Positions 15,702-42,132 are shown, counted from the first letter of the stretch. The stretch is 42,132 nt of DNA from Psammoneis japonica (GCA_008632985.1 QPGO01000370.1:1-42132), one strand, 5' to 3'. The notes: generated by a model not told the origin, from the letters alone. Translations and numbers: made by a program.

Positions 15702-15879
15702 CTTTGAAGTCTGCAAAAGCCGTTGAGTCGAATTCTCTCGTTTCTCTCTTACAACACAGAGAGATTGAGAATGACAGCTGAAGCTTGTCAACTGCAGTGA
15801 TCCAAGCACTCAATGCAGGTTTTGATTGTTTGCCTTCTGTTGTTGTGGGTCGGTTTCTCAACACTTTGGCATGCCGCCG

Positions 15880-21420: not shown

Positions 21421-21479
21421 TATCATGGGTTCGTAGTTCGTAGCTTCACAGAATAAAGTGCAAATGAGATAGAGAAACC

Positions 21480-24714: not shown

Positions 24715-25080
24715 TTAAGGATAGTAGTGTCCTTCCTCCTCCTCTTCCTCTTCTTCCTCCTCTTCCTCCTCTTCTTCTTCCTCCTCCTCTTCTTCCTCTT
24801 CTTCCTCCTCCTCTTCCTCCTCCTCTTCCTCCTCTTCCTCCTCCGAGGATGACTTGCTAGACTTGCTTGACTTGCTTGACTTGCTAGACTTGCTAGACTT
24901 GCTAGACTTACTTGACTTGCTTCCCATTCCTTTGCCATACAGCTCGCGAGCATTGTAGGTCGATGTTTTCTCCAACTTGCGGGCATGGATCTCGCGGCCG
25001 CGGACACGCGACTGAGCGGCAGCAACGTCCACCAACGCCATCGTGGCAACAGCAAGGAGGAACAACGGAAGAAGCTTCAT
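24715..25080 (-). CDS. Silaffin-like small secreted protein (121 aa): signal peptide, RXL sites, (SKS)8, E37
   Basis: MKLLPLFLLAVATMALVDVAAA signal peptide, then RVRG, RKL and REL motifs. Mature part is YGKGMG-(SKS)8-SS-E37-GHYYP. Synonymous variation (AGC/AGT, TCA/TCT, GAG/GAA) falls on third positions of this frame. Confidence 0.85.
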   Translation of the reverse strand: MKLLPLFLLAVATMALVDVAAAQSRVRGREIHARKLEKTSTYNARELYGKGMGSKSSKSSKSSKSSKSSKSSKSSKSSSEEEEEEEEEEEEEEEEEEEEEEEEEEEEEEEEEEEEEGHYYP

Positions 25081-25640
25081 GGTTGAGGGGGGAGAAAACA
25101 CTGAAAACCACGCTGCAATCTGTTTTGTGAGAGTTGTGAGTTGTGAGACGATGGCGGGTACGAAGTGGGCAAAGTTTTTGTTTTTTCACAAAAAATGTTG
25201 ATAAATTTTGAAACATTTATATGACCTTCAGAAGAGTATGATTCGCAAAAATTTTAAAATCAATGATATAATTAAGCGCTAAATACCCAATAATAAAATT
25301 TCAACTATCAAACCACATACCGTATCAAAAATTTTTATCATATACTCAAATATGAACGTGTAGATACTAATCAAATATGGAAAATGCATTTATTAACAAT
25401 TGTTAACGACTAAGAATCTTAGATGCTGTATGTCGGAAGTCATAACTCACATAAGAACGTCAAATTTTAAAAATTGAGAAACAAAAAAATGAGTCGTACT
25501 ACTGACACTGCGAAAGTAAAAATTTGTAAAGCGCTGCCAGTCGTGGGAAAGCAATTTCTTTCTCGCAACAACCGCTTCCATCGTGCCGCTTCTCACTTTT
25601 TCTTGTTAAAAAGAATCACACCCCAACCCTGTTTCCAACC
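25081..25640. promoter_or_regulatory. AT-rich 560-bp intergenic region between divergent genes; candidate bidirectional promoter
   Basis: Head-to-head ATGs at 25080 (-) and 25641 (+). By eye, the most AT-rich stretch of the window. No specific motif identified. Confidence 0.5.
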
Positions 25641-26708
25641 ATGCGTGTTTCTACCTGTGTTTTCTTTGGTGTTGCCAGTCTGCTCGATTGGCAGAATGGA
25701 GCCTTGGCGATTGCCAATCCTTCGGGAGAAGAAGCGGTCGAAAAGGTGGAGGACCCGGAGCAAAAGTTTGTGTTGAAGCCGGATGCGAGCCTTTTAGACT
25801 ATCTGGACCCCTCCCTGTTTGAAGATCCATCGGTTTTGAAAGAAGTCAAGGAAACCCTTCGTAGAGGAAGCCTCGTTGTTCTCAAGGATGCGTTTATTCC
25901 AGAGTTTGCTGAATATGCGTGGTCCTCTTTTAGTCGAGATGATCTCGAATGGGAGCCGTTTGTGTCTATCAAACCTAATGGCCACAACTTTCTAAAGCAC
26001 AGACCGGTCTCGAAAGATAAAGAGGAGGTGTTTAAACAAGTTTCAGATGTCTTCAAGCACAAGGACTCGAGGAAGTTCATGTCTTCTCTTTCAGGCAGAA
26101 ATTGCCATTCCAGCAACATTTCTACTTTGTTGAGCTGGTATAAGCCGGGAGATCACAGTAATCCACACAGTGATAGACTGGGAAAAAGAACTGTGACGTT
26201 TCTTTGGCAGCTATCCAAAGATTGGGATCCAGCTTGGGGTGGTGCCTTTTATTGGAACAATGCATTCTTTCAAAACGCTTACCAGCACGCCTCGTTTAAC
26301 ACGCTCCTCCTGTTCCCCATAACGGCCACGTCAACTCATGCGGTCACCCCAGTCTTGCCTGCTTCGGAAGGTTACAAACGGCTAACCTTTTGTGGTTGGT
26401 ACAATGCCAAAATAACTCGAGACGAATGGGATACTGTGCATGATCCTTTGGAACTCATGTATGCCACCCCTGAGGATCGATCCGACTTGACATATGAAGA
26501 GGCAAAGCGAATTGTGGCGATGGATCTTTCCGAGGTCAAGGACGAGGCTCGCCAACAGAAACTTGATGCTCTTAAGGACGACATTCTGGATGAAGCTATT
26601 CATCCCTTATATGAAGATGCTATTTATGTGTTGGGTTTTCCTGAGGAGAACCACGACCTTGAGAAAAAGGAAGGGCTGTCGGAGGGACAACAACAGAGAA
26701 CCTCTTGA
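25641..26708 (+). CDS. 2-oxoglutarate/Fe(II)-dependent dioxygenase (prolyl-hydroxylase-like fold) with probable signal peptide
   Basis: Intact 355-aa ORF. SWYKPGDHSNPHSD (HxD), LSKDWDPAWGG, FNTLLLF, STHAVTPV (distal His), KRLTFCGWY (2OG-binding Arg). N-terminus MRVSTCVFFGVASLL...ALA. Confidence 0.92.
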   Translation: MRVSTCVFFGVASLLDWQNGALAIANPSGEEAVEKVEDPEQKFVLKPDASLLDYLDPSLFEDPSVLKEVKETLRRGSLVVLKDAFIPEFAEYAWSSFSRDDLEWEPFVSIKPNGHNFLKHRPVSKDKEEVFKQVSDVFKHKDSRKFMSSLSGRNCHSSNISTLLSWYKPGDHSNPHSDRLGKRTVTFLWQLSKDWDPAWGGAFYWNNAFFQNAYQHASFNTLLLFPITATSTHAVTPVLPASEGYKRLTFCGWYNAKITRDEWDTVHDPLELMYATPEDRSDLTYEEAKRIVAMDLSEVKDEARQQKLDALKDDILDEAIHPLYEDAIYVLGFPEENHDLEKKEGLSEGQQQRTS

Positions 26709-27755
26709 AACGTTTCATTGAGTCTTTAACTTTTCACGTACGAGTGTAACTCTATAGCGCCAGACCTACATACTTTCTTTGTTCTTCTGGATGTCCTGCG
26801 AGGACGATTAAACTCACTTAATGTGTTACCGTGCATGGGAATGAATCAGGGTGAATGGCAAAACTGCAATGCACAACTTGAAATCGGGACCAAGAGTGGT
26901 GAATTTCTGTTGCATTGATGGCAACTTTGCCAGGCCAAGGCAATCAGCAACAGAAAGATTGAGGTTTAGATGATGCAAAGGGCCCTTTAGGATTGAAATC
27001 CTTTGGACAGGAGTGCTCATGTTTCTCCCGCATCTTCTCCATTCTCCCGCATCTTTGGCATTGAAATGCTGTGGACAGGAATGCTCATGTTTCGGCATAT
27101 GTCCGGTCACGCAGGTAGCTCCGAGTTTATGAAAAAAAAGAGAGGAAAAGGAGGAGGGGAGGAGAAAACGCCATGCGTTCAATTCGCACGTACGATGGAC
27201 AGACGTTTTGCGACATTCATGCTGCTGCGACAAAAACAAACCAACCATGATGCGGCAATGACCGATGTTTGATCTTGCCACCAAACCTTTTCCTGCCAAA
27301 AATGTCAATGCATGACATCCACATTTTGCTGTGACAAGTGTGTCAATTGCAAGAGACACAAGAGAAAACCCCCAAAAATGAAGAACAAAAGCTCCTTCCT
27401 GCGGCTGTGCCGCTGCCCAGACTGCACATTTTCACAACTTGCACAGCAACAGCCAATGTTCTGTTTTTGCTGCCAAACCTTTCCTGCCAAAATTGCTGAT
27501 GATCAGCATGCTGTGCTGTTTCTCTTTGGCAAGTGCACCAGCGAAAAGAGAGGCACAACAGGAAAAAGCCCAAGAAAGCAAAGCAAACGCAAAGGCCCTT
27601 TGCGTGGTTTTGCCACAAGACTCAGGCTCTCAGCTCTCACAGCTTGTGCACTTCAATTTAAGTTTGCACTTGACAGATTGAAGGCTGACTTTCAGCAATC
27701 AGGTGTCAGGTTCTGCTGTCACACTGTGCCTGTGAGCAGCAGCGCCAAGGTTGCT

Positions 27756-28031
27756 TGACAGAAATTGAAGGCAAATGGCAAGAATTCAAACAACAACTCC
27801 TTGCTGCTGTCTAAATGGCAGATGAGTCTCCGCTCAGAGACCGTCACAGGAGCCAAAAGACGTGTGAGTCGGCACAATCGGGCTGCTGTTGTTGTTCTTG
27901 TGAGCCTTGTGGCTCGAAAGCAAACTGCATCGCGCGCGAACGCGCGGAACTAAAGCACACAAAACTGTGCACGGCAAACCAAACAGCGCGCAACATTTCA
28001 CGCGCATCTAAATCCTGTTCAAATCCTGTCA
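27756..28031 (-). repeat. 3' LTR (276 bp) of the non-autonomous Copia element
   Basis: TG...CA ends, 6-bp terminal inverted repeat, adjacent PPT. Homologous to 31027-31305 and 39863-40138. Confidence 0.93.
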
Positions 28032-28704
28032 CTCCCCAGTTTGCTTGAGGAGTCACAGAAACAGATTTTGACTTCGGATTTACCAAAGAACTTTGGAGTC
28101 AAAGCACCAAAACATGAGGAGACAAGAAAGGATCAAGATCCGAGAGCAACGTTGCATTCTCCAAGTGGGTCATCTTGAGATGAGCTGCGTCTCCCCAATT
28201 GCAGATGCCGTTGTGCTTTTCAAAGCTCAAGGCACACTTGGGATCTTGTGGGATTCCACATCCGCACTTGCAATGGAAGGAGCAAAGCTTGGTCTGGTTG
28301 ACAATGTTGAACGGCGGGGTGACATTGCAGGGGCAATGCAAACAAGTTGACATTGCCTTCACTTCCTGAGCGAAGGTCATAAAGACTGATGGCCGTCTGT
28401 TGGTTCTTGGGATGGTTGCCACACTGGGCTGCTGCTAGAAAAACAGAGCAGTGCTCGTGCAGGGTGGCATGGCGTTTGCACGACTCGGGGAACAGAGCAA
28501 GCATGAGTTCAAAGGCACAAGCGGTGGTCTTGTGTTCCACCAATCCAATTGCAAGCTCAGCTGCATCTCCTGAGAGACTGATCCAATTGGAGAAACGAGT
28601 CTCAAGGTGCAAGCCTTCAGGGATCGGATTGGAGCAAGACATCTTGTGGTGCAAGGCTGCAGATGTCTGATTGGGGCAACCAGTCCCGTGCTGCAAGACT
28701 CATG

Positions 28705-29260
28705 GGATCCAAAAGGACTTGCCAGTCTTGTGACACGAGTCTTCGGGGATCCAATCAGGAGGCCAAGTCTTGAGGTGCGAGACTTGGGGGATCCAATCAG
28801 GAGGCCAAGTCTCGTGGCACAAGACTTGAGGGATCCAATCTGGAGGCCGAGTCTTGAGGCATGAGTTGTGGAGGATCCAATTGGGAGGCCCGGTCTTGAG
28901 GCACGAGACGTGGAGAGTCCAGTTGGGAGGCCTGGTCTCAAGGCACGAGACTTGGGGCATCCGATCAGGAGGCCCAGTCTCGATGTACGACACTTGGGGC
29001 ATCCAATCAGGAGGCCCAGTCTCGAGGCACGAGACTTGAGGCATCCAATCAGGAGGCCTGGTCTTGAGGTGTGAGACTTGGGACATCCAATCAGGAGACC
29101 TGGTCTCAAGGCACGAGACTTGGGGCATCCAATCAGGAGGCCCAGTCTCGAGGCACGAGACTTGAGGCATCCAATCAGGAGGCCTGGTCTCGAGGTGCGA
29201 GACTTGGAGCATCCAGTCAGGAGGCCTGGTCTCATGGTGCGATGCTTGGAGGATCCGAAG
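28705..29260. repeat. 42-bp tandem repeat (~13 units), each with an internal hairpin, inside the LTR element
   Basis: Unit ~CATCCAATCAGGAGGCCCAGTCTCGAGGCACGAGACTTGGGG, period 42 (GATCC at 28748, 28790, 28832). The minus frame reads (TRPPDWMPQVSCLE)n. Confidence 0.92.
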
Positions 29261-29667
29261 ACAACGAAGCTGCTTGGATGTCCTGAACTCCCGATCTGAT
29301 GAACCGGTTGAACTGTTGTGAACAGATTCAATGACGGGAAAAGGAGGCTCCCCATCAGGAGATGCGAGAAGCAAGTTGTCATCTCCATCACTTCCCAAAC
29401 GAAGACTGTGAAGGGTGACAGCGGTCAACACGTGGAGGTTGGCAGCACGTGGTTTGCGGGGTGCAAAGACTGCAGCTTTGGGAGCCATGGGTGGAGTGTC
29501 CCAACTGGTCTTTGAAGTGCGGGCCTGTGCAAGGGCTGCAATCCTGCACTGGGCCGAGGTTGCTTGCAGGCGGGTTGGTCAAGACATGCGGGGCGCGACT
29601 GACACCACTTCTGGGGGACACCTGAGTGGCGGCACAGTGCAAGGCTGGCGTCAAAATGGCACTGGGT

Positions 29668-30072
29668 TCACCTGGTTTGGATGGCAAGGGACTCGGCACA
29701 GGTGCCCAAGGGTGCTGCGCCAGTGGCTAGAGAGGTCAAGCAGTCCGGACCAAGGTGGCAGTTGCGAAATTCGTCGGGTGTGAGCAACTGGGGTTCATTG
29801 GTCACATCATCACCGTTGCAAACTTTGACAAAGTAGAAGCTGATCAAAGCTGCCAGGAGGTTTCTGTGGGTCCGTGGCAAAGGCACTGCATTGGCGCCAT
29901 CTCTGCAAGTGAGGGCGTCAATTTGGGTGGGCAAGAACGTGAACAATTCCTCACACGATTCAATCCCATTGATGGACAGGGCAGAACGAAGAGGGCTGTC
30001 ATCGTCTTGATTGAGCACAGTGCCCAGAATGCATTTGAAGCTTTCAGTTTGTTGCTGTCGCGTGAGAACCAT
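29668..30072 (-). pseudogene. Gag-like N-terminal region of the non-autonomous Copia element
   Basis: First ORF after the 5' LTR and leader: MVLTRQQQ...ILGTVLNQDDDSPLRSALSINGI...IDALTCRD...PLP. It resembles diatom Copia gag starts as I recall them. Expected Tyr positions appear as Cys/His. Confidence 0.6.
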
Positions 30073-31026
30073 GACGGAGGACGGTGCAGTAGAAACAAAA
30101 GACAGGAACCAATCTAGAGCGCGATCTTGACTCGGAGTTTTGACTTGGAACTTGGCTTGAAAAAGACTTGACTTGAGCTAGACTTGACTTGAAATCTTGG
30201 ACTATCCCAAAATCAGAAGTCGCCGGATTGTGCCATCCCGTTCGTTGTCAAGTGCTGAACTTCCCATCCGGTCCGTAGAGTTGTGCCGGCACGTCCGAAC
30301 CCGCAGCTGGCGGTGCTTTGGGTTGCTTGCGAGCGGAGCAGCGGGTTGCAAACCCCTGCAGGTGAGCTGACCAGAGGTGGACAAGACCCCCGAACCGTTC
30401 TTGTTTTGTGTCGGTTGGATTTCCCGATCAGGCTGGCCAGTTGACGCAGGCGTCAGGCGCTGTGGACGAACGAACAAACGCGGGAAAAACACCCTCGCCC
30501 CAACGCAGGCTGCAATCACGGCTGCTTGCTCTCACAGTCGTCCTCGTGGACCTGGTGGAACTGCAGAGCACCAGTGGTCTGGGGCAGATCAGGTGCAACA
30601 GACTCGGCGTGCTTGTAGAGTGGCAGCAAAGCCGCAGTCCAAAGAGTGGGTTCAAGTCCTTGGCCGTGAAGACATGTGTGTGTGCATGTCTTCAGCGACG
30701 AAGATCCTTGAATGTGCAGGGTTCTTGACCGTCAACCGTTGAATGGGCACATGAAGGGATGAGGATCAAGGATGGACTTGGACATGACCGTTGAATGCAT
30801 GTCTTCAGCGACAAAAGGCAGCACAATCAATCCAGACATCCAGCGGCAAGGAGACTTGACGGTGACGTTAACTTCCTGCCGATGCCTGGCATTGAATGCG
30901 CGTAGACTTGCCGATGTACGTAGAACATATACGGAGGTCCACGCAGAATTGAAATACCGTCGTCGGTAAATCAACGACGACGATGGCGGTTGCTCAATGG
31001 GTTGACAATGAGCAAGACTGTCAATC

Positions 31027-31305
31027 TGACAGAAATTGAAGGCAAATGGCAAGAATTCAAACAATGGCTCCTTGCTGCTGTCTAAATGGCAGATGAGTCT
31101 CCGCTCAGAGACCGTCACAGGAGCCGAAAGACGTGTAAGTCGGTATAATCGGGCTGCTGTTATTGTTATTCTTGTGAGCCTTGTGGCTCGAAAGCAAACT
31201 ACATCGCGCGCGAACGCGCGGAACTAAAGCACACAAAACTGTGCGCGGTAAACTAAACAGCGCGCGACATTTCGCGCGCATCTAAATCCAGTTCAAATCC
31301 TGTCA
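31027..31305 (-). repeat. 5' LTR (279 bp) of the non-autonomous Copia element
   Basis: TGACAG...CTGTCA followed by TSD TTGCT. Least mutated of the three LTR copies. Confidence 0.93.
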
Positions 31306-33499
31306 TTGCTTGGCAATCCAGCAGCCAGCTCTCTGTGAAAAATGGTTGCAAAAGGAAAGGATCTGCCTGCTGCAACACAAGAGACAAGCAATCAAGAGTG
31401 CATTTTCCTGTGGTTTGGTGTCAAAGGAAATGTGCTTGTTTGTGGTGCTGTGCTGGCAAGGCCAGCTGCGATGCACAGCCCAGCCAGCCAGCCACCGCCA
31501 GCACAGTGGGTGCTGGCCTCCTCTCATGATGTTGGCATTGGGCCACATCATGCAGCTGTGCCACTGCAGTCAAATGGCATTTCTGCCAGCTCTGCATGAA
31601 AAAACAAATTGCAAAAGGAAAGGAGCCATCTGCGGCACAAGAGACAAGCAGCCGCCAAGCTTCCCATGGTGGCGGGCTGCTTGAAGTGCTGCAGCAGCTG
31701 TGCTCTGTGCTGGCCATCCAACAGAGATGAGTGGACCACAACATTGGCTGCAAGATGAAAGGACTGTGTTGGTCACAACTGGCACCAAACAAGTGCAGGA
31801 AATTTTCCTTTCATCCGAGGAAATTTGGGGGCTGCTGAGAGAGGAGCCCCCCATGACCCAAAACCCCACTCATGCTCACATTTTGATTTCCCCCTCATTG
31901 GCTTGTTAAATGAAGAAAACAAAGAGGCTTTCCTCTTTTGTTTTGTTGCACAATGTGTGCCAGATTTGCCACACCAATTTGAGCTTTTGTGGGCTTGCTT
32001 GGAGCAGATTGCACTTGAAGAGACCACGGAAGCACATCTTTTTGTCCTTGAGAAAGTGCCTCCCAATGGTGTCTGCCTCACTCATTGAGTGCATTGCACA
32101 AAAAGAGGTGTTTTGGCAGCCACAGGCTCTGTGCAAATCAACTTCTAGATGAATGGTTCATGACGGTTGCAACCACGCATTGAATCACCAATTGTTTTTT
32201 CCTTTTCTTGTTTTCTTGCACTTCCTTGTCTAGGAAATTCAGCGCCAAATAAGGAATTCCCTGTGATCGAAAACCTGTGATGATGCGGTGATTGGCACGT
32301 TGACAATGATTCCGTCCGTGGCGTCGCCATCAAATTTGCACTGGAAAACCATGCAGGTTTCTGCTTGTCGCCATCAAAATGGAATTGTGTCGTTGTCAAA
32401 TTCCACACAAACCCTGGTGCATTTCCTGCACAGTTTGTAAAGAGCCACCTGCGCAGCTGGACGATTGCCCACATTTCTCCCGCATCTTCCTCGTTCTCCC
32501 GCATCTTCAGCATTGAAATGCTGTGGACAGGAATGCTCACATTTCTCCAGCATCGCAGTGCCCCGCACCGCACATCAGGGCAGCAGCAGTGCGGTGCAGA
32601 CAAAAACTGCTGTCCGTCGTCCGTCGTGTCGCAGAACACGCGTGAGGCGTTCCAGAGTTTGTTGTTGTTTCAACAACAGCAACAGAGTGACCTTGTCGGC
32701 CGAGGTTTTGGTGATTGCTGTCAGCAAGCAAGTGGTGAGCACATGAACATCTGTCCTTTGATGGACAGACTCAAGCTGATCAACGGCCCTTTTGTCATTT
32801 TCCCCACTCTGCAGCGGGGCGCAAAGATGCAGCGAGGCACGCAAGGAGAGATGTGTGTGGGCGAGAAGTTGGGGTGAGACCAGCAGCAAGCTTTGGATCA
32901 ATGAGCCATTGTTGTTGCAGCCTGCAGCTGCTGCAATGGCAAAGGCTTCACCAGAGCCAAGGACAGCACAGCAGCTCTCTTTGTCCTGCCACCCAGCAGC
33001 CCAAATGCACAATGCTTGCAAGCATTTCCACGTGGGAGGCTTGCCACAAGTCCTTGATGCCAGCTCCCATTGTGAAGTCAGCAGAGCATTTTGCCGCATT
33101 CTTTGGCAACAGCCTCTCCACTGAGGCTTGTTGTGCAGAGACGTTGAACTCCAAGGATTTTTGGCGGCTCTTGTTCCGAGCACCCCAGGGAATGCAAAGC
33201 TCCTTCGCCAGCTCCATGTCAACCTCAAAGCTCCCCTCAATCCTGAGAAGAAAGATGAAGATTGGGTCTTGAGTGGTCATGGCACTCATGTGATGGCAGC
33301 CAACCCACCCAGCTCACATCTCTCCAGTGCATCAATGACTCACCAGCAGCCGTGCTGGGCTGGGGTGACTCCGAGTTGCTCGTCAGCATTTCTGGCAGAC
33401 ATTGAGTTGCTGACCACTTTTCTCAATGCCAGCAAGCCCTGCACCACTTGCTGCACATCACCATTGTCCCATGTTTTTTGGCAGGAGTGGCCATTGCCA

Positions 33500-35600
33500 G
33501 CTGTTGTCACCTTGTGATCTGCGCTCTTCAAAATTGTGATGCTGCTGCTTTGGACTTGCCAGCTTGTTGGTGGCCTCAGGCAAGATGCAGTTTTCTGTGT
33601 TGGATGCCCTTGTTCAATCCAGGGTTGTGAGTTGGGCATCCTCAGCCAGCGCCATTGCTTGGGTGGCTCATGCCACTCAGCAACCCCATTGCCAGTGACC
33701 TGGTGGCAGCTGCCAGCCCTGGCAGCACCACCATGAGATCACATTGGGTGCAGCAATGGTGCCTGACACCACTTTTCATCATTTTCACCAGGAACTCACC
33801 CTCTTCAAAAATTTGGTTGAGGAACATGGTGGGGCAGTCCTGGCTTGGGTGTTTGTGGCATGATGCTGAATGCCTCTGAACCCTGCCTTCTGGGATGGTT
33901 GACACCAATGGCAACCTTGTCATCATGTGCACCACATGGCCAGTGGCCACCTGCAAGGAAATGCTCAAACAGTTCTCAAGTGCAGTGCCAAAATGTCTCT
34001 GATTGACCACATGCTCAACAATGTGCACAGGTGTGGCATCAGCTTCCCATTGTCCACCTGCCAGATTCAGTGCTTTGGAAAGTTGCAATTGACTGCTGCA
34101 CACTCCTTGGAGGCTTGCAGCATCTTTGCCTGTTTTCCCAAGAAGATGTCAGCCTCCAACCCTCAAGACATCATGTCCTTCCACATGAAGACCAAGGACG
34201 CAAAGCACTCTTCTCTTGTGAGCTGTGACGAACTTGGCATTTGTTGCATTCTCAAGTGCATCAACAAGATGCACTGTTGGCCACAGTCTGAGCTCCAGGC
34301 CTGTTTGTTGTGCAGCAAGAGAAGGAAGACCATGGGCAGTGTCTCACCACAATGAACACTGTGAAGGAACTGCACATGGAGTGTGGTGTGGCTCCTCCCT
34401 TGCACTTGTGTCATCCAAAGACACTGGTGCATTGCAACAAAACCATCATGATGCACAATGGGGGTCAAGGTTCTTTGGCACTTGCCAAAAACATTGGCTG
34501 GCAAGGTGCCCATGATGGCATCAAGCATGGTTGCAAGTTTGGCCCTGTGCCCAAGAAGACATCCACCAGTGTGGTGTTGTGCCAGAAGCCTGCCAACTGC
34601 TGTGACATTGTGGGCTTCACTGTCAGTCAACAGTCAATCAAATGGAGTCCAATGCTCCAGCAACAATGACAGACACATGACACAGCTGACCTGGCATTCT
34701 CCAAGCCACTTGGACGCCAAAGTCCAAATCTGCTCCCCATCAGCCCAATCCTGTTTTCATCAATGCAACAATTGACAACTCAACTGCCACCGGAATTGTG
34801 TGGGTGAGATGGCACCTTTAACTCCCTTGATGGGCTGCACCTTTTTGCTGATGCTGCCCACCCAGATTGCAACAACAAGTTTGGGAACACATTCCATTTC
34901 AAGATCATGCCCAATGTGCCCATTGTTCAGTCACGGATGTTGAGTGTAACTGTGTCTTTCACACCAACAAGAAGAGCAGCCAAAACAGAAAGGTGTGTTC
35001 CCTCTCTGCTGTCCAGCCTGTCCCTGAGACTGGCAAGCTGAAGCAGCATGGCATCAAATCTCACATGAGAAAGGTTTGCAATGATCTGTTCAAAAACTAA
35101 AAGATGACTTGGCATCATCACAAAACATTCTAAATCATGCCATTGTGTTGCTTCCACATGGCTGGCTCTTGCTCTCCAGGCATCTGGTCCTTCATGAGGC
35201 TCATCTCCGGGACCTCAGTGAAAGTGCAACAAAGCAATGCCAAGGTCATGTGTGCATTTGGCAAGGCCTTGCTCACTCTGCAGGCATCATTGTCACAATC
35301 TGGTTGCAACTTTGCCATGTTCATGATGTGACTGCCAGGATTTGGAAGGAGTTTGGAAAAGGCATCATTTTGACTCAACATGGACCAAAACAATTGGTGT
35401 GAATTGTTTTGCCTCAAAGCCATGGCCAAAACTAATTCCCACATTTTTGACAATTCCAAACAGCTTTGGCCCATTGCTTGTCTTTTCTGCAGCAGCTTTT
35501 GTGGATTCATCACTGCTTGTGTCAATGCAAGTCATTGTTGCGCCATCTCGACTGCATTTGGGAACTTCTTGCTAAAAATCATTTGCAGCAGTTTGACCTT
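33500..35600 (-). mobile_element. Decayed non-LTR retrotransposon (LINE) reverse-transcriptase region
   Basis: Minus-strand remnants in the expected order: KLLPNPGS (~35340), KDQMPG (~35185), CDDAKSS..(D)RII resembling NDAKSCYDRI (~35085-35125), DSEAHNVTAVG resembling EA(H/R)KTLGV (~34600). Heavily disrupted, boundaries approximate. Confidence 0.5.
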
Positions 35601-35736
35601 GAGTCTCGTCACATGATCCCAACCACATGTGAATGTCCAGGTGTTGCTCCAAAATGGCCTTGCAAATGCCATGATGACAATGTGGTTGACATGGACATGG
35701 TGACAGAACCAACAAGAACAAAGCTCAGTTCAAGTG

Positions 35737-35737
<1 letters not shown>

Positions 35738-35803
<66 letters not shown>
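35738..35803 (+). repeat. (CAA)22 microsatellite
   Basis: 66-bp perfect CAA run flanked in register by TGA/CAA units. Confidence 0.95.
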
Positions 35804-35805
<2 letters not shown>

Positions 35806-37049
35806 ACAATGACAAAAAGTTCATGACTGCATTGCACTTCTTTGGGCATCACAGATCACAGATCCCACCTGCCGGCAAAATGACTTTCGCCAGCTTGGCA
35901 TGGCGGGAATTGGTGGGGGCACTTTCTCCACCTGCAAAGTGGCCCTTCAGTGGCTGAGCAGGGCTTCACTCATGCACGCAGAGTTGCAGGGTGTGTTTGC
36001 TGTTTGCAAAGCTGGGCAAGGCTGGCAAGATCTGGGTTGGTGGTGCCACCCTGTGCCACCACACTCACATGGAGAAGCATCACAGTGCAAGCTCTCCTGT
36101 GAATGGGGAGAAATTGGGCTCACAAAAGGGAGCCACGGTGCTGGCAAATTCTTTTTCATTGTGTCATCTCTTGTTTTGTGCCAGAGCACCCATCTCTCTT
36201 GGTGTGCACTGGTGTTGCTGGCACAAAACAAGAAATGCTGCTGCTGTGGCACTCCTGCTTTGATGCTCTGCACCAAATGCTGCAATGTCTTTGCAGCTCA
36301 TCACACAGCACAAGCCAAGCTTGTTGACAACAGTCTCCTTTGTCTCACTTCAAACAATCAATGGCAGCTGAACAAAAGGAGACATTCAAGACATGCTGGA
36401 GACAGACAAAGTGATGAGAGGTTGCAGAGTGCAGAAAAGGCAACATGACTTGGCATGGAGGTCAGCTGGGGTTTGGTTTGATCTCACAGCCACACGTTGT
36501 GTTCCCAAGCTCATGAACATGAATGAAAGCTCAACAGGCACACTTGCTGATGCAAAAAGCAGTGGGAAAGGTCGTCCTGCTCTTGAGAGCACAGATTTTG
36601 GGTTGTCATCTGCTGGGCCAGTTACCCAGTGTTGAAATGAGTCTGTGGAGGCATGAGGAAAGAAGGACTTGGGACAGGACAATTGGGAGAGGATGAGTTG
36701 CATGCCATCCAGAACTTTGCAAAGGGTCTTTTCTCAGTGCAGCATTGAGGGAAAGCTGTGGAGCAGATCTGATTTGAAAAAAGCACTTTTTAACAACTTC
36801 CACACCACATCTTTGCTCAGACTGGCACCCACAGCAGAGCAGCTGGAAAGCAAACTGTCAAGCCAGCACTGCAGGGTTGGCACAGCTGTGGCTGGCTGCA
36901 TGTTGTCTGGGATGTTTTTGTGAGTCACAGAGGTGACCATTTGCAGCTTCCATTCCGTGCACGCATGGTGTGCGGTGCGGTGCGTGCATGCGTGGAATCA
37001 TCCAAGAAGGTCTTTCCACTGTCAGTCTTCATTTTTCTTGTTCGACACC

Positions 37050-37800
37050 ACACCTTGCACCTGCCTTGAGATGTTTGTGAGATCGCAGACAATGAGCTGA
37101 TTGTCAAGACACACCCACAGAGCACCGCCCATTGCCCTCTCTCACATTCTAATGTCACCCCCACCACTGTGGATCACATGCCACATTGCAAATCCTTCTT
37201 GGCACAAGAACTGTGGAGCAAGAAACTGCTTGGACTAGAGGATTGGCCACATCAAAATGGGTCACACATCCAGACATCAAAGTGGGAACAATGTGGCTTC
37301 TTTCTTCATGGCACAATGAGGCTCCTCCTCTGGCAATCCACTCAGAATGTGGCAAGGTCAAAACTGCCTTCTTGGCTCAAGAAAATTTGAGCAAGAACTT
37401 CTTTGCCAGAGGATGATTCCTTGTCATCAAGTGGGCATGCATGCAACAGGCTCATTGTGAATGCTTGGATGGAAGGAACACAGGCCTGTCCCAGGTCTCA
37501 GGTCTGATCATGCACTTGCAGGACATTGCCTGGGACATGTGGAGGAGTCAGAAGCAAGTGGATGACTTGGAGAAGTCTGAAACTCTGCTGCAACAACAGC
37601 ATCTTAGATGGGCAGGCAGGGGAAGAATGCAGATCCTTCTGCAACAACCCCATCTCTCACCACCATCTGTCTTGATGGTTTGTCAGGCCAACAGAGAACA
37701 TCTTGGCAGAAGATCAGGACCACAAATGACATTGACTGGAAGCAGTGTCAGTCGCAAGACTGGCTGTTGCTTTGCTTGACACTGATTGAGGATCTACAAG
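37050..37800 (+). mobile_element. Decayed LINE ORF2 C-terminal fragment
   Basis: AFLAQENL...FFARG...KWACMQQAHCECLDGRNTG...LIMHLQDIAWDMWRSQ resembles the Q-x-IGW...W..QQ.YY...W.MW..RN tail of non-LTR ORF2 proteins. Confidence 0.5.
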
Positions 37801-39862
37801 GATTGTCAGTTGTGCAGTGTTTCCACCCCACAACTTCAAATGTGGACTTGGGCTTGTTTTGTTGTGCACATGTGCTCTGACCCTGTCTGCAGTTGTGGAC
37901 TGAAAGGCATGCCAGGCATTGCCAAAAGCTTGTTGCAGGCAGCAGCCAGCAATGGCTGTGCAATTTTTGGGATTGAATTAAATTGAATTGAACTGTGTGA
38001 GGAAATGGCTTCTGGTGTGGCATCACCACCTGTCTGTCTGTTTGGGCCAGCAGGAAGCACTCCAAGTTGAGGTTTCACTTTTTGTGTTTTGCCATTTTTG
38101 AAAACCATTGGCCACCTTTCATTGTCATCATCATTGCACTTGTTTTGTGAATCAGCTGCAGGACTTGTTCAATGGTTCAATGGCTGTTGCCCACAGTGTG
38201 TTTCCACCATGCAGGCAACACCCCAATGGCAGTTGTTGCAGCTTTTCCCCAGGTCCAGTTTGGTTCATTTGAAGGCAGTCTAGCTCATGCTCATGACAGT
38301 GTGGCTGCACCCAATTGGTCTGACCCCAACTTGTCACTGCAAAACAAGTTTCCAGAGTGCATCTTCTCTTGTGTGTGTCTCCTGCAGGGCCAATGACAAA
38401 GCAAGTGCCCATTGCACCCTCCACACAGCCAAGAGTTCATGGCAACAGTGTCCAAATGGCCACCAAGATGGGCTTCAGTGAGACTTGACAAGAGCTTGTG
38501 GACTTGACCCACACAAAGAGAGCAACCTAAATTGGTTGCTCAGAGTCTGAGGTGGCAACAAAATTTTGAGTGCTGGAGGAGTTTCTTTTGCCCCCCAAAA
38601 CCACAACTGTCAGCCCACCCAATGCACTCCTCACATTGTGGATGCATGGCAGTCAGTCTGAAGTTGTGCCCCCAAGACCCCCCTTTTTGTAGCATCTTGG
38701 CTGATGCATCTGCCAAGCACACTGTGGAGGTGCGCCAGACTGTTGACAACATTTGGTCTTTGTTTGTGGCATTGTCTCAGCAGCATTGGTCAGCATCCCT
38801 GGTCATCTGCTCAAGGATCTGCAGACTCCATGAGCAAATGCAAGATGGACCCTGCACCCATGGTGCATGGAGAGTGGATTGCCTCATCAATCATTTGTTG
38901 CTGCTGCACAGTTGGCTGGCACATCTGCTGCCAAGTGCTCCAGGCAGGAGGCACAAGGATGAGACTCTCATTGGCAGCACCCATCATTTTGTGGTTTGTG
39001 GCACTGACTCAGCAGCATTGGCCTGCATCCTGCCCTGCCATCAGCTCAAGGATCTGCAGACATGAGCAAAGGCAAGACAGACCATGTGCACATGCGTGGA
39101 AAGCAGATTGCTGTCAGCCACATTTTTGCAATGATTGCCAAATGACTCTTCATTTGACATCTGTTGTCCATTTGTTTGCCAGCCACAATGGAGTGGAGAG
39201 CTGCAAATGGCAAGTGGAGAGAGTGTTGCCATCTTCCAACAACACAGCCAGTGCAGCCCTGCTGCATGGCCCCAACAACCCAGGTGGAAGCCTTGGCTCT
39301 GAGGAAACTGAGAGAATGGGTGCCAAACAAGCTCAGCTGGAATCCCACAGATGAGAATTTTAAATTCAAAATGGATGACATTTGGACCCACAAGAAAGGA
39401 GCTCAACACATCACTCATCAGGCAAGACAAAAAATTTGACAAACCCATGGAGCCAAATGAACCACTTTTCCCTGGTGTGCTGCCCACCTCCTCATCTTAG
39501 AAGTTTTCAACATTTTGCCAATGGACATGTTTCCCACCACAAAATTTGGCATGTGTGAGCTCTGCCCTGCTGCCACTGAGAGTGCATTCATGCCACAATG
39601 TCATGAGCCAAGGAAGCAGCTCTTTGGCATGTCTTGACTCTTGTGTGCGGAGCTTGTTCAGCATGCCGTGGGGACACAGCACTGTGATCAAATGGAGAAA
39701 GATCTTCAATCTTGTTGCTGGGATGTGTGAAAAGCAGAAATGATGGGACCTTTTTTTTTGCACCCTCCTTCTTAGAAGAACACAAACATGACACAGCTCA
39801 TTGGCTGGCTGGAGAAGTTGACTGTGTTTTTGAAGCCCTGGAGGCCAAAGTCTCTCACAATG

Positions 39863-40138
39863 TGACAGAAATTGAAGGCAAATGGCAAGAATTCAAACAA
39901 TGACTCCTTGCTGCTGTCTAAACAGCAGATGAGTCTCCGCTCAGAGACCGTTGCAGGAGCCGAAAGACGTGTGAGTCGGCACAATCGGGCTGCTGTCATT
40001 GTTCTTGTGAGCCTTGTGGCTCGAAAGCAAACTGCATCGCGCGCGAACGCGCGGAACTAAAGCACACAAAACTGTGTGCGGTGAACTAAACAGCGCGTGA
40101 CATTTCGCGCGCACCCAAATCCTGTTCAAATCCTGTCA
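39863..40138 (-). repeat. 3' LTR (276 bp) of the pol-bearing Copia element
   Basis: TGACAG...CTGTCA, collinear with the other two LTRs. Confidence 0.93.
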
Positions 40139-40189
40139 CTCCCCATTTTGCTTGAGGAGTCACAGAAACAGATTCGACTTCGGATGGAA

Positions 40190-42132
40190 TGAAGTTCCAG
40201 AACATGAGGGGGTGGAGAAGGTCCCAGACTTGGGGAGTGACCCCAATGCTTGCTGAGAACATCAGCAGGGTTGCGGGAGCCTTCGATGAAGTGGAGCTCA
40301 AGGCAACCAGAGGCAATTGCCTCACACACACAGTGGAACGACAGTGCGGTGTGTTGCTTGTGTAACTTGGAGTGCGGGATGGTGGCACTGTCTGCAACCG
40401 ACTTGTTGTCACTGAACATGCAACCAATGTCACGGATCGGGACGCCGAGGTGGCGCAGGGTGATGCGCAGGTCAATGATCTGCTCGACACAAGTCCTTGC
40501 GGGCAACAAATTCAGATCCGCAGGTTGCAGTCTCCACGGTGGCTTGCTTCTTAGAGAACCAATCAGCCGGGAATTCATTGAGGAAGTGGAGCATTCCCAT
40601 GACAGGGCGTCCGGTGAGCATGCAATGGCACAAGTTTGCATCGACGCAGTGGGTGGTGGTGACAAACTTGCCAAGGGGCAGTGGAGCGTCCTTTGGGATC
40701 ATCTCTTCTGCTTCGCCGTGCACAGAATGCATCCATTCATGGGCCGGAGCAGGGAGATCTGAACAGTCAGGCTTTTCTGTGCAAACGCGGAGAGCGCTGT
40801 GTCGCATCTTGGAGAGGCACCCACAGACGCGTTTGGCACGATCCAAGTGGCCTTGGCGGGGCGCAGCTTGGAAGCTAGAGAGTGACATGACGGCCGTGGC
40901 AATGTCAATTCGACCAAGGGACACTGCCCATTGGAGTGAACCAACAAGAGACTGGAACTGTTGAATGCCATCGGGCCCCAGCAGTTCGGAAGTGTCCAGT
41001 TCGGGGTGGTCACCCTTCTCCAGAGGTGACAGGGTGTTGGTGGTGGGTTTCTCCCCAAACAGTCATGTGCAGCTGTCGACCATGCGTTCGATGCACTTGC
41101 GCGGAGACAGGCACGAGGTGCCGTCAGGATCCCGGGAAAAGTCACAGCCCAGATGGAACTCAATCGGTCCCGCACCCTTGAGCTTGAACTTGCACTTTTC
41201 CGTGAGAGTGTCGACGAAAGATTGAGGGTCCTTCATGGCAATGGCGAGGTCATCCACATGGACGGCAACATGTTCGTGGTGGTCGCCGTTCCTGCACATC
41301 CAAATGTTGGGTTCGGCGTGGCAGGGGAAGAAACCTTCAGCTCGCAGGCAGTCAGCAAAGCGCTCATGCCAGCGGAGGCCGGAGCTGCGCAGTCCATGCA
41401 GGGCCTTGTGGATGACAAGAATGCGGCCTTCGAGTTTGCCAAATTCGGGTCCAGCTGCAATGTACAGCTTCTCCTTGGTGGTGGCTTCAAGGTGGGCATT
41501 GCCAATGTCGGTGGCCCATGTCTCCAACTCGTTGAGTTCGGCCAGGAAAATCATCAGCCGAAGGCCACGGAGGGAGACTGCTCCGGAGCAGACACTGTCG
41601 ACGGGCATGTCCGTGAGGTGCCCATCGGCTGCGAGTCGTGCCTTGTGGCAACCGTCGTGTTTCACGTCATGCACTGGGTGCACTCGGATCTTCTTGTGTC
41701 CCGCAGGAGGAGTGGAAGACTCGGAGGGCCCGCGGTCATGAAAGACTTTGCACTCATCGAGTTGGTCCATCTCGAGATTAGTCGCGTCTCCCCATTTGCG
41801 GTTGCCATTGCATTCGTCTAGTGACATGGCGTGTTTGCAGTTCCGGGGAACTTCGTGTCCGTACTTGCAGTGAGGTGCAGTGTGGAAGGAGCGAAGCTTG
41901 GCTTGGTTGGCCATGCGGAGTGGCTTCTTCTGGCGCCTCGCGATGGTGCGGAACCGCTTCCAGCCATCAGTGTCGAGAAGTCCGTTCTCTCGTGCATAGA
42001 TGGCGCAGGTGACAGGGTCGTCCTTGGCGATGATGGCAAGAGGCTCGGACGTGATCTCCCCACTTTCCCATTCAAGCATGATGTTGTAGCTTGAGCCTTT
42101 CCAGGTTGGGTCATGAGGCTTCAGAGGTCCTT
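40190..42132 (-). pseudogene. Copia pol pseudogene (reverse transcriptase RVT_2 + RNase H), frameshifted and hypermutated
   Basis: HKARLAADGH, DIGNAHLEA (canonical DIGNAYL), KALHGLRSSG (KALYGL), AVHVDDL (YVDD), CVDAN (YVDA), ETATCGSEFVA (TYGSEF), DNKSV, NPADVLSK. Frame breaks near 41060-40930 and 40490. Confidence 0.95.

What the first reader, a model, noticed from the sequence alone, without database searches (positions are those of the whole stretch)
27756..40138. Transposon-restricted, double-stranded TpA>TpG/CpA hypermutation shown by three LTR copies: candidate RIP-like genome defence with A-to-G chemistry
Seen: the two LTRs of one insertion (TSD TTGCT) were identical when inserted, yet differ almost only at TpA and CpG sites. 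The 5' LTR has gtgTAag, ggTATAat, aacTAcat, ggTAaacTAaac; the 3' LTR has gtgTGag, ggCACAat, aacTGcat, ggCAaacCAaac. At two sites the same TA is TG in one copy and CA in another (gtTAtt: gtTGtt at LTR 27756, gtCAtt at LTR 39863; ggTAaa: ggCAaa vs ggTGaa). That points to TA as ancestral and to both strands being hit. Established: CpG>TpG/CpA is the signature of 5mC deamination, and fungal RIP creates TpA rather than removing it. Inference: a second process converts A>G at TpA in chromosomal DNA of silenced repeats. RNA editing or RT error does not explain it, because it is strand-symmetric, post-insertion and also affects non-retro DNA. One candidate is a DNA-acting adenosine deaminase (TadA-family enzymes prefer a 5' U/T); another is biased mismatch repair tied to methylated chromatin. 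I know of no described pathway, but I could not search the literature.
Basis: partly seen in the sequence, partly recalled or inferred. Interest (0 to 1): 0.92.

Follow-up and report, generated by a model that had tools for sequence, protein, structure and literature searches.

The report
TpA-erasing hypermutation of silent DNA
Most of the non-genic DNA in this window, including a family of LTR retrotransposons, has had nearly every TA dinucleotide turned into TG or CA, a rare mutational genome-defence signature so far reported only in a 2026 preprint on one marine alga.

Summary
The three LTR copies (27756, 31027, 39863) differ at 25 columns; 23 lie in CG/TA/TG/CA dinucleotides and 24 are transitions only.

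An independent test fixes the direction. In the Copia pol ORF next to LTR C, 20 of 26 conserved Tyr codons (TAY) now read Cys (11) or His (9). Comparable A>G/T>C changes outside TpA number 8 of 179. So TA is ancestral and both strands are hit.

The signature extends well beyond the LTRs. 28.9 kb of the 42.1 kb window has TpA o/e 0.05-0.14 and raised TG+CA counts. Three gene blocks and the 5' LTR keep TpA o/e 0.36-0.88.

Contigs of a sequencing run reproduce a TA-free block with 0 differences over 32440-36416. This argues against an assembly artefact.

The idea is already in print. A 2026 bioRxiv preprint shows de novo TpA>TpG/CpA-only hypermutation of integrated viruses in Bigelowiella natans and proposes a DNA adenine deaminase.

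This window appears to be a second, far more saturated case, on retrotransposons and with separable CpG decay. The enzyme and restriction to transposons are unproven.

The parts
27751..27755 (.). Target-site duplication TTGCT, left copy
   Evidence: empty-site joint 27750>31306 in run contigs
27756..28031 (-). LTR A, the 3' LTR of the minus-strand, internally deleted Copia element. It is mutated: TA 3, CG 18. All three surviving TAs are in CTAA context.
28032..31026 (-). Internal region of element A-B. It holds a pol fragment (28135-28311), a gag fragment (29671-30072) and a 42-bp tandem array (28734-29233). TpA is almost gone up to about 30864.
30869..31284 (-). Unmutated island covering the 5' LTR (B) and the adjoining leader. 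TpA o/e 0.73, CpG o/e 1.42.
   Evidence: HMM segmentation
31027..31305 (-). LTR B, the 5' LTR of element A-B. It keeps TA 11 and CG 22 and is the copy closest to both others (A-B 15, B-C 16, A-C 19 mismatches).
31306..31310 (.). Target-site duplication TTGCT, right copy
39863..40138 (-). LTR C, the 3' LTR of a second Copia element that runs off the window. Mutated: TA 3, CG 20.
40098..42130 (-). Copia pol (RT, Pfam RVT_2, through the C-terminal part). 22 of 26 conserved Tyr codons are changed (Cys 11, His 9, Trp 1, Phe 1). The Tyr that 99% of 120 homologs have just before VDD reads His (HVDD). TpA is nearly absent while CpG o/e is about 0.5-0.9.
3647..11390 (.). Hypermutated block: TpA o/e 0.06, CpG o/e 0.36. 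Origin unknown.
15641..21420 (.). Hypermutated block: TpA o/e 0.05, CpG o/e 0.21. Origin unknown.
27196..30864 (.). Hypermutated block: host repeat, LTR A and most of the element interior. TpA o/e 0.08, CpG o/e 0.58.
31289..42123 (.). Hypermutated block: TpA o/e 0.06, CpG o/e 0.31. It includes a host repeat (31471-32804, summed depth 1388-1798), a single-copy stretch (32805-39474, depth 32-127) and the Copia C element.
7..3640 (-). Unaffected block with a subtilase gene. TpA o/e 0.57, CpG o/e 0.90.
11402..15638 (-). Mostly unaffected block with a FAST/DUF1601/RAP repeat-protein gene. TpA o/e 0.36-0.54, with a 320-bp low-TpA piece at 14783-15102.
22089..27192 (+). Unaffected block with a Tpa1/OGFOD1-like 2OG-Fe(II) oxygenase ORF at 25530-26708. 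TpA o/e 0.57, CpG o/e 0.82.

Best explanation
The window comes from a eukaryote whose genome has two compartments. In the silent, non-genic compartment a DNA-level, post-insertion mutational process converts TpA to TpG or CpA. This compartment includes an abundant Copia LTR retrotransposon family, a moderately repeated host repeat and further DNA of unknown origin. The process hits either strand at each site independently and runs almost to saturation. Ordinary CpG>TpG/CpA decay of methylated cytosine acts on the same compartment more slowly. Genes are spared, and in the one case visible here so are a 5' LTR and its leader. Targeting therefore seems to follow local chromatin or transcription state, not repeat homology alone. 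This is the same signature seen arising de novo in Bigelowiella natans mutation-accumulation lines. As the most likely chemistry I take enzymatic deamination of adenine to hypoxanthine (read as G) in 5'-TA-3' on either strand, by a DNA-acting ADAT2/TadA-type deaminase recruited to silent DNA. Shown here: the direction, the TpA specificity, strand symmetry, post-insertion timing, compartment boundaries, and a flank effect (RTAY and RTAR sites almost all lost, YTAR sites partly surviving). Inferred: defence function, chromatin targeting, and the enzyme. I put the phenomenon at about 0.85. The stated confidence of 0.45 covers the whole statement including adenine deamination.
For: Direction and specificity. 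In 453 conserved codons of pol (40098-42130, minus strand; 56 full-length homologs), Tyr is kept at 4 of 26 and reads Cys 11, His 9, Trp 1, Phe 1. A>G at codon position 2 outside TpA occurs at 5/121. T>C at position 1 outside TpA occurs at 3/58. Fisher test of 20/26 against 8/179 gives p=2e-16. A first pass with 120 homologs gave Y>C 7 and Y>H 6 among 37 substitutions, including the Tyr before VDD, which reads His. Only the window's copy is Tyr-poor: 1.1% against a median of 3.9%.

LTRs. 23 of 25 variable columns lie in YR dinucleotides. B is central to A and C (A-B 15, B-C 16, A-C 19).

Compartment. Low-TpA segments total 28.9 kb, with TpA o/e 0.05-0.14. Other segments have TpA o/e 0.36-0.88. 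TA+CG+TG+CA stays at about 119-122 per 500 bp in both compartments.

Control. Among paralog pairs, 77/116 mismatch columns are YR interchanges in affected DNA, against 39/119 in gene tandem repeats (p=3e-7). CA/TG double swaps number 21 against 3.

Separability from CpG decay. 40000-42132 has TpA o/e near 0 but CpG o/e 0.5-0.9. In LTR A, TA fell from 10 to 3 while CG fell from 22 to 18.

Not an assembly artefact. Run contigs at depth 32-40 match 32440-36416 with 0 differences.

Family copies. Part of the contig depth reads TA where the window has TG or CA: 52% at 30364, 60% at 30774, 70% at 30812.

Precedent. The preprint reports that 231 of 302 new mutations fell in two viral insertions, all but one A>G or T>C, and that all of these fall on TpA. 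It names an ADAT2-like candidate.
Against: At 4 LTR sites (columns 111, 118, 120, 175) A and C share TG/CA against TA in B. Simple outgroup parsimony would make TA derived there. This needs parallel hits at hot sites or a closer A-C relationship.

The TE or foreign origin of most affected DNA is not shown: 0 of 147 ORFs has a TE or viral family.

The library type of run X1 is not on record, and it may be the sample the window was assembled from.

Nothing in the sequence separates A>G from T>C chemistry.

TG and CA outcomes show no strand-coordinated tracts (z -0.5 to -0.9). A processive single-strand deaminase is therefore not indicated.

Sparing of the 5' LTR is a single case. Gene conversion from an intact copy could also produce it.

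The organism is unidentified, so no deaminase gene could be looked for.
Confidence: 0.45

Rival explanations
1. The phenomenon is the same but the chemistry acts on thymine. A TET/JBP-type dioxygenase oxidises T in TpA of silent DNA to 5-hydroxymethyluracil and on to 5-formyluracil. This mispairs with G at replication and gives T>C, that is CpA on one strand and TpG on the other.
For: In two dinoflagellates 5hmU is enriched on repeats, including Copia and other LTR elements. An inhibitor that lowers 5hmU raises TE expression (passages; section 8). An abstract states that polymerases insert C and G opposite 5-formyluracil (listing). Chemical mapping of 5hmU reads it as C. A preference of dinoflagellate 5hmU for TpA is recalled from older biochemical work and comes from no call here. 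The window encodes a FAST/DUF1601/RAP repeat protein. I recall such proteins from alveolates and green algae.
Against: Base-resolution mapping in Breviolum found no sequence motif around 5hmU. The organism is not identified as a dinoflagellate: a spliced-leader motif search gave only one 2-mismatch match, which 28 of 100 shuffles also give. The B. natans preprint does not mention 5hmU. No TET/JBP gene lies in the window.
Confidence: 0.2
2. Biased repair, not base modification. A mismatch-specific glycosylase or short-patch repair system tied to methylated chromatin resolves T:G or A:C mispairs at TpA towards G:C. This would resemble very-short-patch repair, which I recall as the proposed cause of CTAG depletion in E. 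coli.
For: It affects the same compartment as CpG decay. The outcome is symmetric on both strands with no tracts. The flank effect (YTAR sites partly surviving) would fit a sequence-reading repair enzyme.
Against: It needs a very high supply of mispairs at TpA to erase about 95% of sites. TpA loss is complete even where CpG is barely reduced (40000-42132). The 1000-fold rate and the on/off behaviour between lines in the preprint look like an induced activity.
Confidence: 0.1
3. Base-calling or assembly artefact. Modified bases (5mC at CpG, a modified T or A at TpA) are misread by a long-read platform, and the consensus randomly fixes TG or CA.
For: It would explain the joint loss of CG and TA, the random TG/CA choice and the confinement to silent, modified DNA. 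The library type of the only holder run is not on record.
Against: K-mer contigs of run X1 at depth 32-54 match the TA-free, CG-free block exactly: 0 differences over 32440-36416 and 21 over 36766-39820. The longest contig in that run is 315 kb. Noisy reads would not give this (that the reads are accurate is my inference). Gene blocks in the same assembly keep TA and CG. The preprint saw the same changes arise de novo in Illumina NovaSeq data.
Confidence: 0.05
4. The reverse direction. A RIP-like C>T process at CpA/TpG created the TAs in LTR B, and TG/CA is ancestral.
For: At 4 LTR sites the third copy C agrees with A (TG/CA) against B (TA).
Against: Conserved Tyr codons show TA>TG/CA. TpA is nearly absent from the affected DNA, not enriched. 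B also keeps all 4 CpGs that A lost, and it is the copy closest to both others. Part of the family's contig depth reads TA where the window has TG/CA.
Confidence: 0.03
5. Editing before integration. ADAR-type editing of retrotransposon RNA, or deamination of cDNA, is fixed by reverse transcription. A variant is selection of the elements against UpA and CpG in their RNA.
For: ADAR favours a U upstream of the edited A (as stated in the preprint's discussion). CpG and UpA are both suppressed in many RNA viruses (titles and abstracts in the listing).
Against: The changes are strand-symmetric on the sense strand (Cys 11, His 9). The two LTRs of one insertion differ. Single-copy DNA with no detected retro-element protein family is equally affected. 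The changes destroy a Tyr that 99% of 120 homologs keep next to VDD, so they are not adaptive.
Confidence: 0.03

Closest known systems
TpA-specific hypermutation of integrated viral DNA in Bigelowiella natans (Mettrop et al., bioRxiv 10.64898/2026.01.13.699255; abstract, Results and Discussion read)
   Same: TpA>TpG and TpA>CpA only, on both strands. [quoted passage not shown] TpA-poor CDS there are enriched for reverse transcriptase and DDE domains. Read as a RIP-like defence with a DNA adenine deaminase as candidate.
   Different: There it was seen de novo in two viral insertions that still hold many TpA (3.3% and 9.2% of dinucleotides), and only 124 clusters were found in the genome. Here TpA is almost erased from 69% of a 42-kb window. 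The named targets are Copia LTR elements, CpG decay rides along, and a flank effect and a spared 5' LTR are visible. The preprint's main text has no occurrence of CpG, LTR or Copia. The organism here is probably different: the best hit of its Tpa1-like ORF in the protein collection is 53% identical.
Repeat-induced point mutation (RIP) of fungi
   Same: Transition hypermutation that inactivates repeated or foreign DNA and leaves a dinucleotide signature.
   Different: RIP is C>T, mostly at CpA, and creates TpA (abstract in the listing). Here TpA is destroyed. RIP is triggered by duplication. Here two identical LTRs of one element were treated differently, and single-copy DNA is affected.
CpG decay by deamination of 5-methylcytosine
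   Same: CG>TG/CA on both strands is present in the same compartment: LTR columns 100, 218-219, 239-240 and 248, and Arg>Cys 5 and Arg>Gln 2 of 32 conserved Arg.
   Different: It cannot remove TpA. It is slower and separable here: CpG o/e 0.5-0.9 where TpA o/e is near 0.
ADAR (RNA) and APOBEC (cDNA) hypermutation of retroelements and viruses
   Same: Deaminase-driven clustered transitions as a defence. ADAR favours a U upstream of the edited A.
   Different: Those act on RNA or single-stranded cDNA before integration and are strand-asymmetric. This acts after integration, on both strands, and also on DNA with no detected retro-element protein family.
5-hydroxymethyluracil marking of dinoflagellate transposons (PMC11071213 passages; PMC11572971 passages and section 8)
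   Same: A thymine modification concentrated on repeats, including Copia and other LTR elements, and linked to silencing. It would give T>C if over-oxidised.
   Different: No mutational signature and no TpA motif is reported there. The organism here is not shown to contain 5hmU.

Membership tests
TpA>TpG/CpA targeted hypermutation (B. natans type) | Mutations are A>G/T>C at TpA and rare in other contexts | tested here: met
   Tyr codons 20/26 against 8/179 for matched non-TpA changes, p=2e-16. 8 of 15 variable LTR dinucleotide sites involve TA.
TpA>TpG/CpA targeted hypermutation (B. natans type) | Both strands are hit (TpG and CpA products) | tested here: met
   Cys 11 against His 9. TG:CA is 958:996, 551:567 and 718:915 in the three large blocks.
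TpA>TpG/CpA targeted hypermutation (B. natans type) | [quoted passage not shown] | tested here: met
   HMM segments of 0.3-10.8 kb with TpA o/e 0.05-0.14. TG/CA o/e is 1.7-2.0 in the 1.5-kb windows with the lowest TpA.
TpA>TpG/CpA targeted hypermutation (B. natans type) | Targets are foreign-derived DNA (viruses, transposons) | tested here: inconclusive
   The Copia family is a target, with summed contig depth of 65,000-100,000 against about 32-54 for single-copy DNA. The other blocks show no TE or viral Pfam family in 147 ORFs, and two further searches gave nothing usable.
TpA>TpG/CpA targeted hypermutation (B. natans type) | Arises de novo at about 1e-7 to 1e-6 per site per generation | not testable with these tools
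   This needs mutation-accumulation or pedigree resequencing. The only hint is a run contig with 4 TA>TG/CA changes within 29 bp at 23335-23363.
Fungal RIP | C>T at CpA, creating TpA (high TpA/ApT) | tested here: not met
   TpA o/e is 0.05-0.14 in affected DNA. The direction is TA>TG/CA.
Fungal RIP | Triggered by sequence duplication, so all copies of a repeat are hit | tested here: not met
   The 5' LTR is spared while the 3' LTR of the same element is hit. A block of single-copy depth is hit.
5mC-driven CpG decay | CG>TG/CA with CpG o/e far below 1 | tested here: met
   CpG o/e is 0.21-0.58 in the four large affected blocks. In the LTRs, CG in B reads CA or TG in A and C. That methylation is present is inferred.
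ADAR-edited retrocopies | A>G on the transcribed strand only, fixed before integration | tested here: not met
   On the sense strand both A>G (Cys 11) and T>C (His 9) occur. The LTR pair differs after insertion.
Sequencing artefact at modified bases | Accurate reads show TA/CG where the assembly shows TG/CA | tested here: not met
   Contigs of run X1 match 32440-36416 with 0 differences. Caveats: the library type is not on record and the run may be from the same sample.

The most novel reading that the evidence does not exclude
A sequence-selective TpA mutator (RTAY and RTAR sites almost all lost, YTAR sites partly surviving) acts on double-stranded chromosomal DNA under guidance of chromatin state. 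It erases TpA from most non-genic DNA of a second eukaryote, probably unrelated to Bigelowiella. It works several times faster than 5mC decay erases CpG and spares genes and an active 5' LTR promoter. That would make 'adenine RIP' a widespread eukaryotic genome-immunity system. Its enzyme would be a natural DNA adenine editor, or else an unrecognised mutagenic use of thymine oxidation.
Probability: 0.3. Interest if true: 0.9.

Novelty: new member of a known kind. Interest (0 to 1): 0.68.

Why it matters
A mutational defence that targets TpA was unknown until a single 2026 preprint, and its enzyme is still unknown. This window suggests three things. The process is not a curiosity of two viral insertions in one alga. 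It can reshape most of the non-genic DNA of a genome. And LTR retrotransposons are among its targets.

The window also supplies handles the preprint's main text does not mention:
- paired LTRs as an internal clock (TpA lost about 6 times faster per site than CpG in LTR A);
- a flank rule (YTAR sites survive);
- the absence of strand-coordinated tracts;
- a spared 5' LTR, which argues for targeting by chromatin state over targeting by homology.

There are practical consequences as well. Such DNA loses TAA and TAG stops and Tyr codons. It therefore shows long false ORFs in all frames and escapes homology-based TE annotation.

Tried and rejected
No whole genome is held for this window, so a family-wide LTR alignment was impossible.

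A metagenome scan with a degenerate LTR pattern found 0 matches.

Earlier-findings look-ups by place, words and sequence returned nothing.

Sequencing runs: no RNA holder was listed. Read laying printed only 40 of 911 variable places, so the family-wide state at the LTR sites could not be read.

A dinoflagellate spliced-leader motif gave one 2-mismatch match, which 28 of 100 shuffles also give. It was rejected as evidence of lineage.

Pfam on 147 ORFs of at least 85 aa in the affected blocks gave only three sub-threshold matches: Vir1p, VPS13_M and a zinc finger.

ORF 17186-17986 had no homolog at E<=0.001. ORF 32578-33276 had 2 weak hits at E about 3e-4 to 7e-4 among 1.84 billion representatives. 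Neither says anything about origin.

Rfam and tRNA scans found nothing.

Strand-coordinated (kataegis-like) tracts were rejected. The runs test gave z -0.94, -0.65 and -0.48 in the three large blocks. For the 20 Tyr events I count 8 runs against about 10.9 expected, which is not significant (order).

Whether the flank decides which strand is hit is unresolved. With a preceding pyrimidine the outcome is Cys 7, His 5; with a preceding purine it is Cys 4, His 4. The excess of RCAR/YTGY products is confounded with CpG decay and with unknown ancestral composition.

Literature searches for another description found only the B. natans preprint. bioRxiv supplements are closed, so its Table S2 (mutated sites and flanks) could not be compared with the flank rule.

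Full report
**1. What is there**

Repeat finding and alignment show three copies of a 276-279 bp LTR: A 27756-28031, B 31027-31305 and C 39863-40138. They are 93% identical and have TGACAG...CTGTCA ends. A is preceded and B is followed by TTGCT. A contig of a public run joins 27750 directly to 31306, which is the empty site.

Full-length Copia polyproteins from the protein collection match the minus strand at three places:
- 40098-42130, the C-terminal part of pol, ending next to C;
- 28135-28311, a pol fragment;
- 29671-30072, the N-terminal (gag) part.

A purine tract (GGGGAG) abuts A and C on the minus strand. So A-B is a 3.55-kb, internally deleted Copia element on the minus strand, with B as its 5' LTR and A as its 3' LTR. 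C is the 3' LTR of a second element that runs off the window.

**2.

- Of 25 substituted columns, 23 lie in CG/TA/TG/CA dinucleotides of B. 144 of 276 columns are of that kind, giving binomial p=2.4e-5.
- 24 of the 25 columns are transitions only.
- B has TA 11 and CG 22; A has TA 3 and CG 18; C has TA 3 and CG 20.
- TA+CG+TG+CA is 72-73 in all three copies, so only interchange within this class has occurred.
- Three sites are TG in one copy and CA in another with no intermediate. Two are TG/TA/CA and two are CA/CG/TG.
- B is the copy closest to both others: A-B 15, B-C 16, A-C 19 mismatches.

**3. Polarity**

The LTRs alone leave some doubt. At four sites (columns 111, 118, 120, 175) A and C share TG/CA against TA in B. 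I therefore used protein conservation in the same family.

The pol ORF next to C has 1502 relatives at E<=0.001, and the 120 best listed are mostly 63-71% identical. Against 56 full-length relatives, 453 codons are conserved (at least 20 relatives aligned, at least 70% agreeing). At the 26 conserved Tyr positions the window keeps Tyr 4 times and reads Cys 11, His 9, Trp 1 and Phe 1. The Tyr that 99% of 120 homologs have just before VDD reads His.

Matched controls from the same table:
- A>G at codon position 2 after A, C or G: Asn>Ser 1/13, His>Arg 1/20, Asp>Gly 1/30, Lys>Arg 2/28, Gln>Arg 0/7, Glu>Gly 0/23, in all 5/121.
- T>C at position 1 before T, C or G: Phe>Leu 2/20, Ser>Pro 1/21, Cys>Arg 0/5, Trp>Arg 0/12, in all 3/58.

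Fisher test of 20/26 against 8/179 gives p=2e-16. TA is therefore ancestral, the change is specific to TpA, and both strands are hit about equally. Arg>Cys (5) and Arg>Gln (2) of 32 conserved Arg show CpG decay as well. Among the fetched relatives only the window's copy is Tyr-poor.

**4. It is far larger than the LTRs**

Over the whole window TpA o/e is 0.24 and TG/CA o/e is 1.58-1.59. A two-state segmentation on TA versus TG/CA gives two classes.

Low-TpA segments:

| Segment | TpA o/e | CpG o/e |
|---|---|---|
| 3647-11390 | 0.06 | 0.36 |
| 14783-15102 | 0.05 | 0.49 |
| 15641-21420 | 0.05 | 0.21 |
| 21505-22086 | 0.14 | 0.81 |
| 27196-30864 | 0.08 | 0.58 |
| 31289-42123 | 0.06 | 0.31 |

These total 28.9 kb.

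Segments that keep TpA:
- 7-3640, with a subtilase gene;
- 11402-15638, with a FAST/DUF1601/RAP repeat-protein gene, apart from the 320-bp low-TpA piece listed above;
- 21421-21498, a 78-bp piece;
- 22089-27192, with a Tpa1-like oxygenase ORF;
- 30869-31284.

These have TpA o/e 0.36-0.88 and CpG o/e 0.82-1.42.

The sum of the four YR dinucleotides is about 119-122 per 500 bp in both classes, as expected if TA and CG were converted to TG/CA.

As an internal control I compared paralog pairs. In affected DNA, 77 of 116 mismatch columns are YR interchanges, with 21 CA/TG double swaps. In tandem repeats inside genes the figures are 39 of 119 and 3 (p=3e-7). The three LTR pairs in that count are not independent of each other.

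**5. Properties of the process**

(a) It is separable from CpG decay and faster. 40000-42132, 28000-30000 and 6400-7400 have TpA o/e near 0 with CpG o/e 0.4-0.9. In LTR A, TA fell from 10 to 3 while CG fell from 22 to 18, a per-site rate ratio of about 6.

(b) There are no strand-coordinated tracts. Runs tests of TG against CA give z -0.94, -0.65 and -0.48 in the three large blocks.

(c) There is a flank effect. 82 TAs survive in 25.5 kb of affected DNA, against 510 in 13.8 kb of unaffected DNA.
- Survivors are mostly YTAR (CTAA/TTAG, TTAA, CTAG): 50/82 against 101/510, p=1e-13.
- ATAT is 0 against 37, and ATAC/GTAT is 1 against 84.
- The three TAs left in LTR A are all CTAA.

(d) The only unmutated island inside the transposon region is 30869-31284. 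This is the 5' LTR plus the adjoining leader, with CpG o/e 1.42. The once-identical 3' LTR is mutated. This single case argues for targeting by local chromatin or transcription state over targeting by repeat homology. Gene conversion from an intact copy is an alternative.

**6. Is it real DNA?**

One run (X1) holds 68% of the sampled words of 25500-35499. Three very small runs of the same sample hold 6-7%.

Laid on 22133-42132, contigs of X1 at depth 32-40 match 32440-36416 with 0 differences. A 3055-bp contig matches 36766-39820 with 21 differences. Contigs of that length and depth imply accurate reads. That is my inference: the library type is not on record, and the run may be the sample the assembly came from.

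Bins over the Copia family sum to 65,000-100,000, against about 32-54 for the contigs over the single-copy block, so the family is very abundant. The flanks of element A-B (26802-27468 and 31471-32804) sum to 1300-1800, so the element sits inside another repeat. 32805-39474 has single-copy depth.

Among the 40 variable places printed (of 911), part of the contig depth reads TA where the window has TG or CA: 52% at 30364, 60% at 30774 and 70% at 30812. It reads CG where the window has TG or CA at 30314, 40213 and 40769 (91%, 100% and 100%). The reverse case, CG in the window and CA in all contigs, occurs at 41115 and 41734.

**7. What is not shown**

'Transposon-restricted' is only partly supported. 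None of 147 ORFs of at least 85 aa in the affected blocks has a TE or viral Pfam family. Two further homology searches gave nothing usable. Loss of Tyr codons and of TAA/TAG stops would itself hide homology and create false ORFs.

The organism is unidentified. Its Tpa1-like ORF has no relative above 53% identity in the protein collection. That makes the sequenced B. natans strain unlikely. The extent of the signature points the same way: 69% of this window, against 124 clusters in that whole genome.

**8. Known or new**

Five literature searches found one description: bioRxiv 10.64898/2026.01.13.699255. I read the abstract, Results and Discussion and ran a term search on it.

In B. natans mutation-accumulation lines, 231 of 302 new nuclear point mutations fell in an integrated giant-virus region and a virophage region. 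All but one were A>G or T>C, and the authors report that all of these fall on TpA. The rates were about 1000 times the genome background and were seen only in some lines. TpA-poor CDS were enriched for reverse transcriptase and DDE domains. The authors propose a RIP-like defence by a DNA-acting ADAT2-like adenine deaminase.

The preprint's main text has no occurrence of CpG, LTR, Copia or hydroxymethyluracil.

**9. Mechanism**

I commit to the same process as in B. natans. Adenine deamination in TpA on either strand is the most likely chemistry (about 0.45 for the whole statement, about 0.85 for the phenomenon).

The main rival (0.2) is oxidation of thymine to 5hmU/5fU, which mispairs with G. 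5hmU marks repeats, including Copia and other LTR elements, in dinoflagellates. An abstract states that polymerases insert C and G opposite 5-formyluracil (listing). A TpA preference of 5hmU is recalled only, and base-resolution mapping in Breviolum found no motif.

Biased repair (0.1), artefact (0.05), reverse RIP-like polarity (0.03) and pre-integration editing or selection (0.03) are less likely, for the reasons given under rivals.

**10. Verdict**

This is a second and much more saturated instance, on LTR retrotransposons, and it adds mechanistic constraints.

Noticed in passing
window 23335-23363: Inside the unaffected compartment, the only run contig covering this spot (depth 35) differs from the window by TA>TG three times, TA>CA once and one T>A, all within 29 bp. 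This may be a polymorphic or ongoing hypermutation patch, or a shifted compartment edge in another haplotype or copy.
   Followed up: partly
window 22133-26801 versus 32805-37473: Summed contig depth is 144-301 over the gene block, and the two listed contigs there (depth 113-117) each differ from the window at 5 places. The TA-free single-copy block has depth 32-66 with exact matches. The window's haplotype or copy may be a minority form, or the gene block may be multi-copy.
   Followed up: no
window 13169-15809 (-): Gene for a FAST_1/DUF1601 repeat protein with FAST_2 and RAP domains. It has 11 tandem 111-bp (37-aa) units at 13737-14981. Such proteins are recalled from alveolates and green algae as organellar RNA-binding proteins. 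It is the only hint to lineage in the window.
   Followed up: partly
window 73-3103 (-): Subtilase (Peptidase_S8) gene split over two overlapping ORFs, with a 108-bp tandem repeat at 920-1230.
   Followed up: no
window 25530-26708 (+): 2OG-Fe(II) oxygenase ORF. Sources name its relatives Rps23 Pro-64 3,4-dihydroxylase Tpa1-like. It is a housekeeping type of enzyme and showed no Tet_JBP match in Pfam, so it is not a candidate for the thymine-oxidation rival.
   Followed up: partly
window 28734-29233: 42-bp tandem array (11.9 copies, 82% matches) inside the internally deleted Copia element A-B. It lies in long minus-strand ORFs (28435-29424 and 28700-29578) with no Pfam family.
   Followed up: no
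affected blocks, e.g. window 40126-41232 and 32145-33313: With TA gone, only TGA stops remain. Long overlapping ORFs therefore appear in several frames on both strands (148 ORFs of at least 85 aa overlap the blocks listed). Gene finders would over-call here.
   Followed up: partly
window 35737-35803 and 24732-24921: A perfect (ACA)22 microsatellite lies in the TA-free block. CTT/CCT-rich 9-21 bp repeats lie in the unaffected block.
   Followed up: no
affected blocks as a whole: Products are uneven. RCAR/YTGY rises from 43.9 to 70.7 per kb, while RTGR/YCAY rises only from 37.8 to 48.1 per kb. This may be a second flank preference of the TpA or CpG process, or it may reflect a different ancestral composition.
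   Followed up: partly
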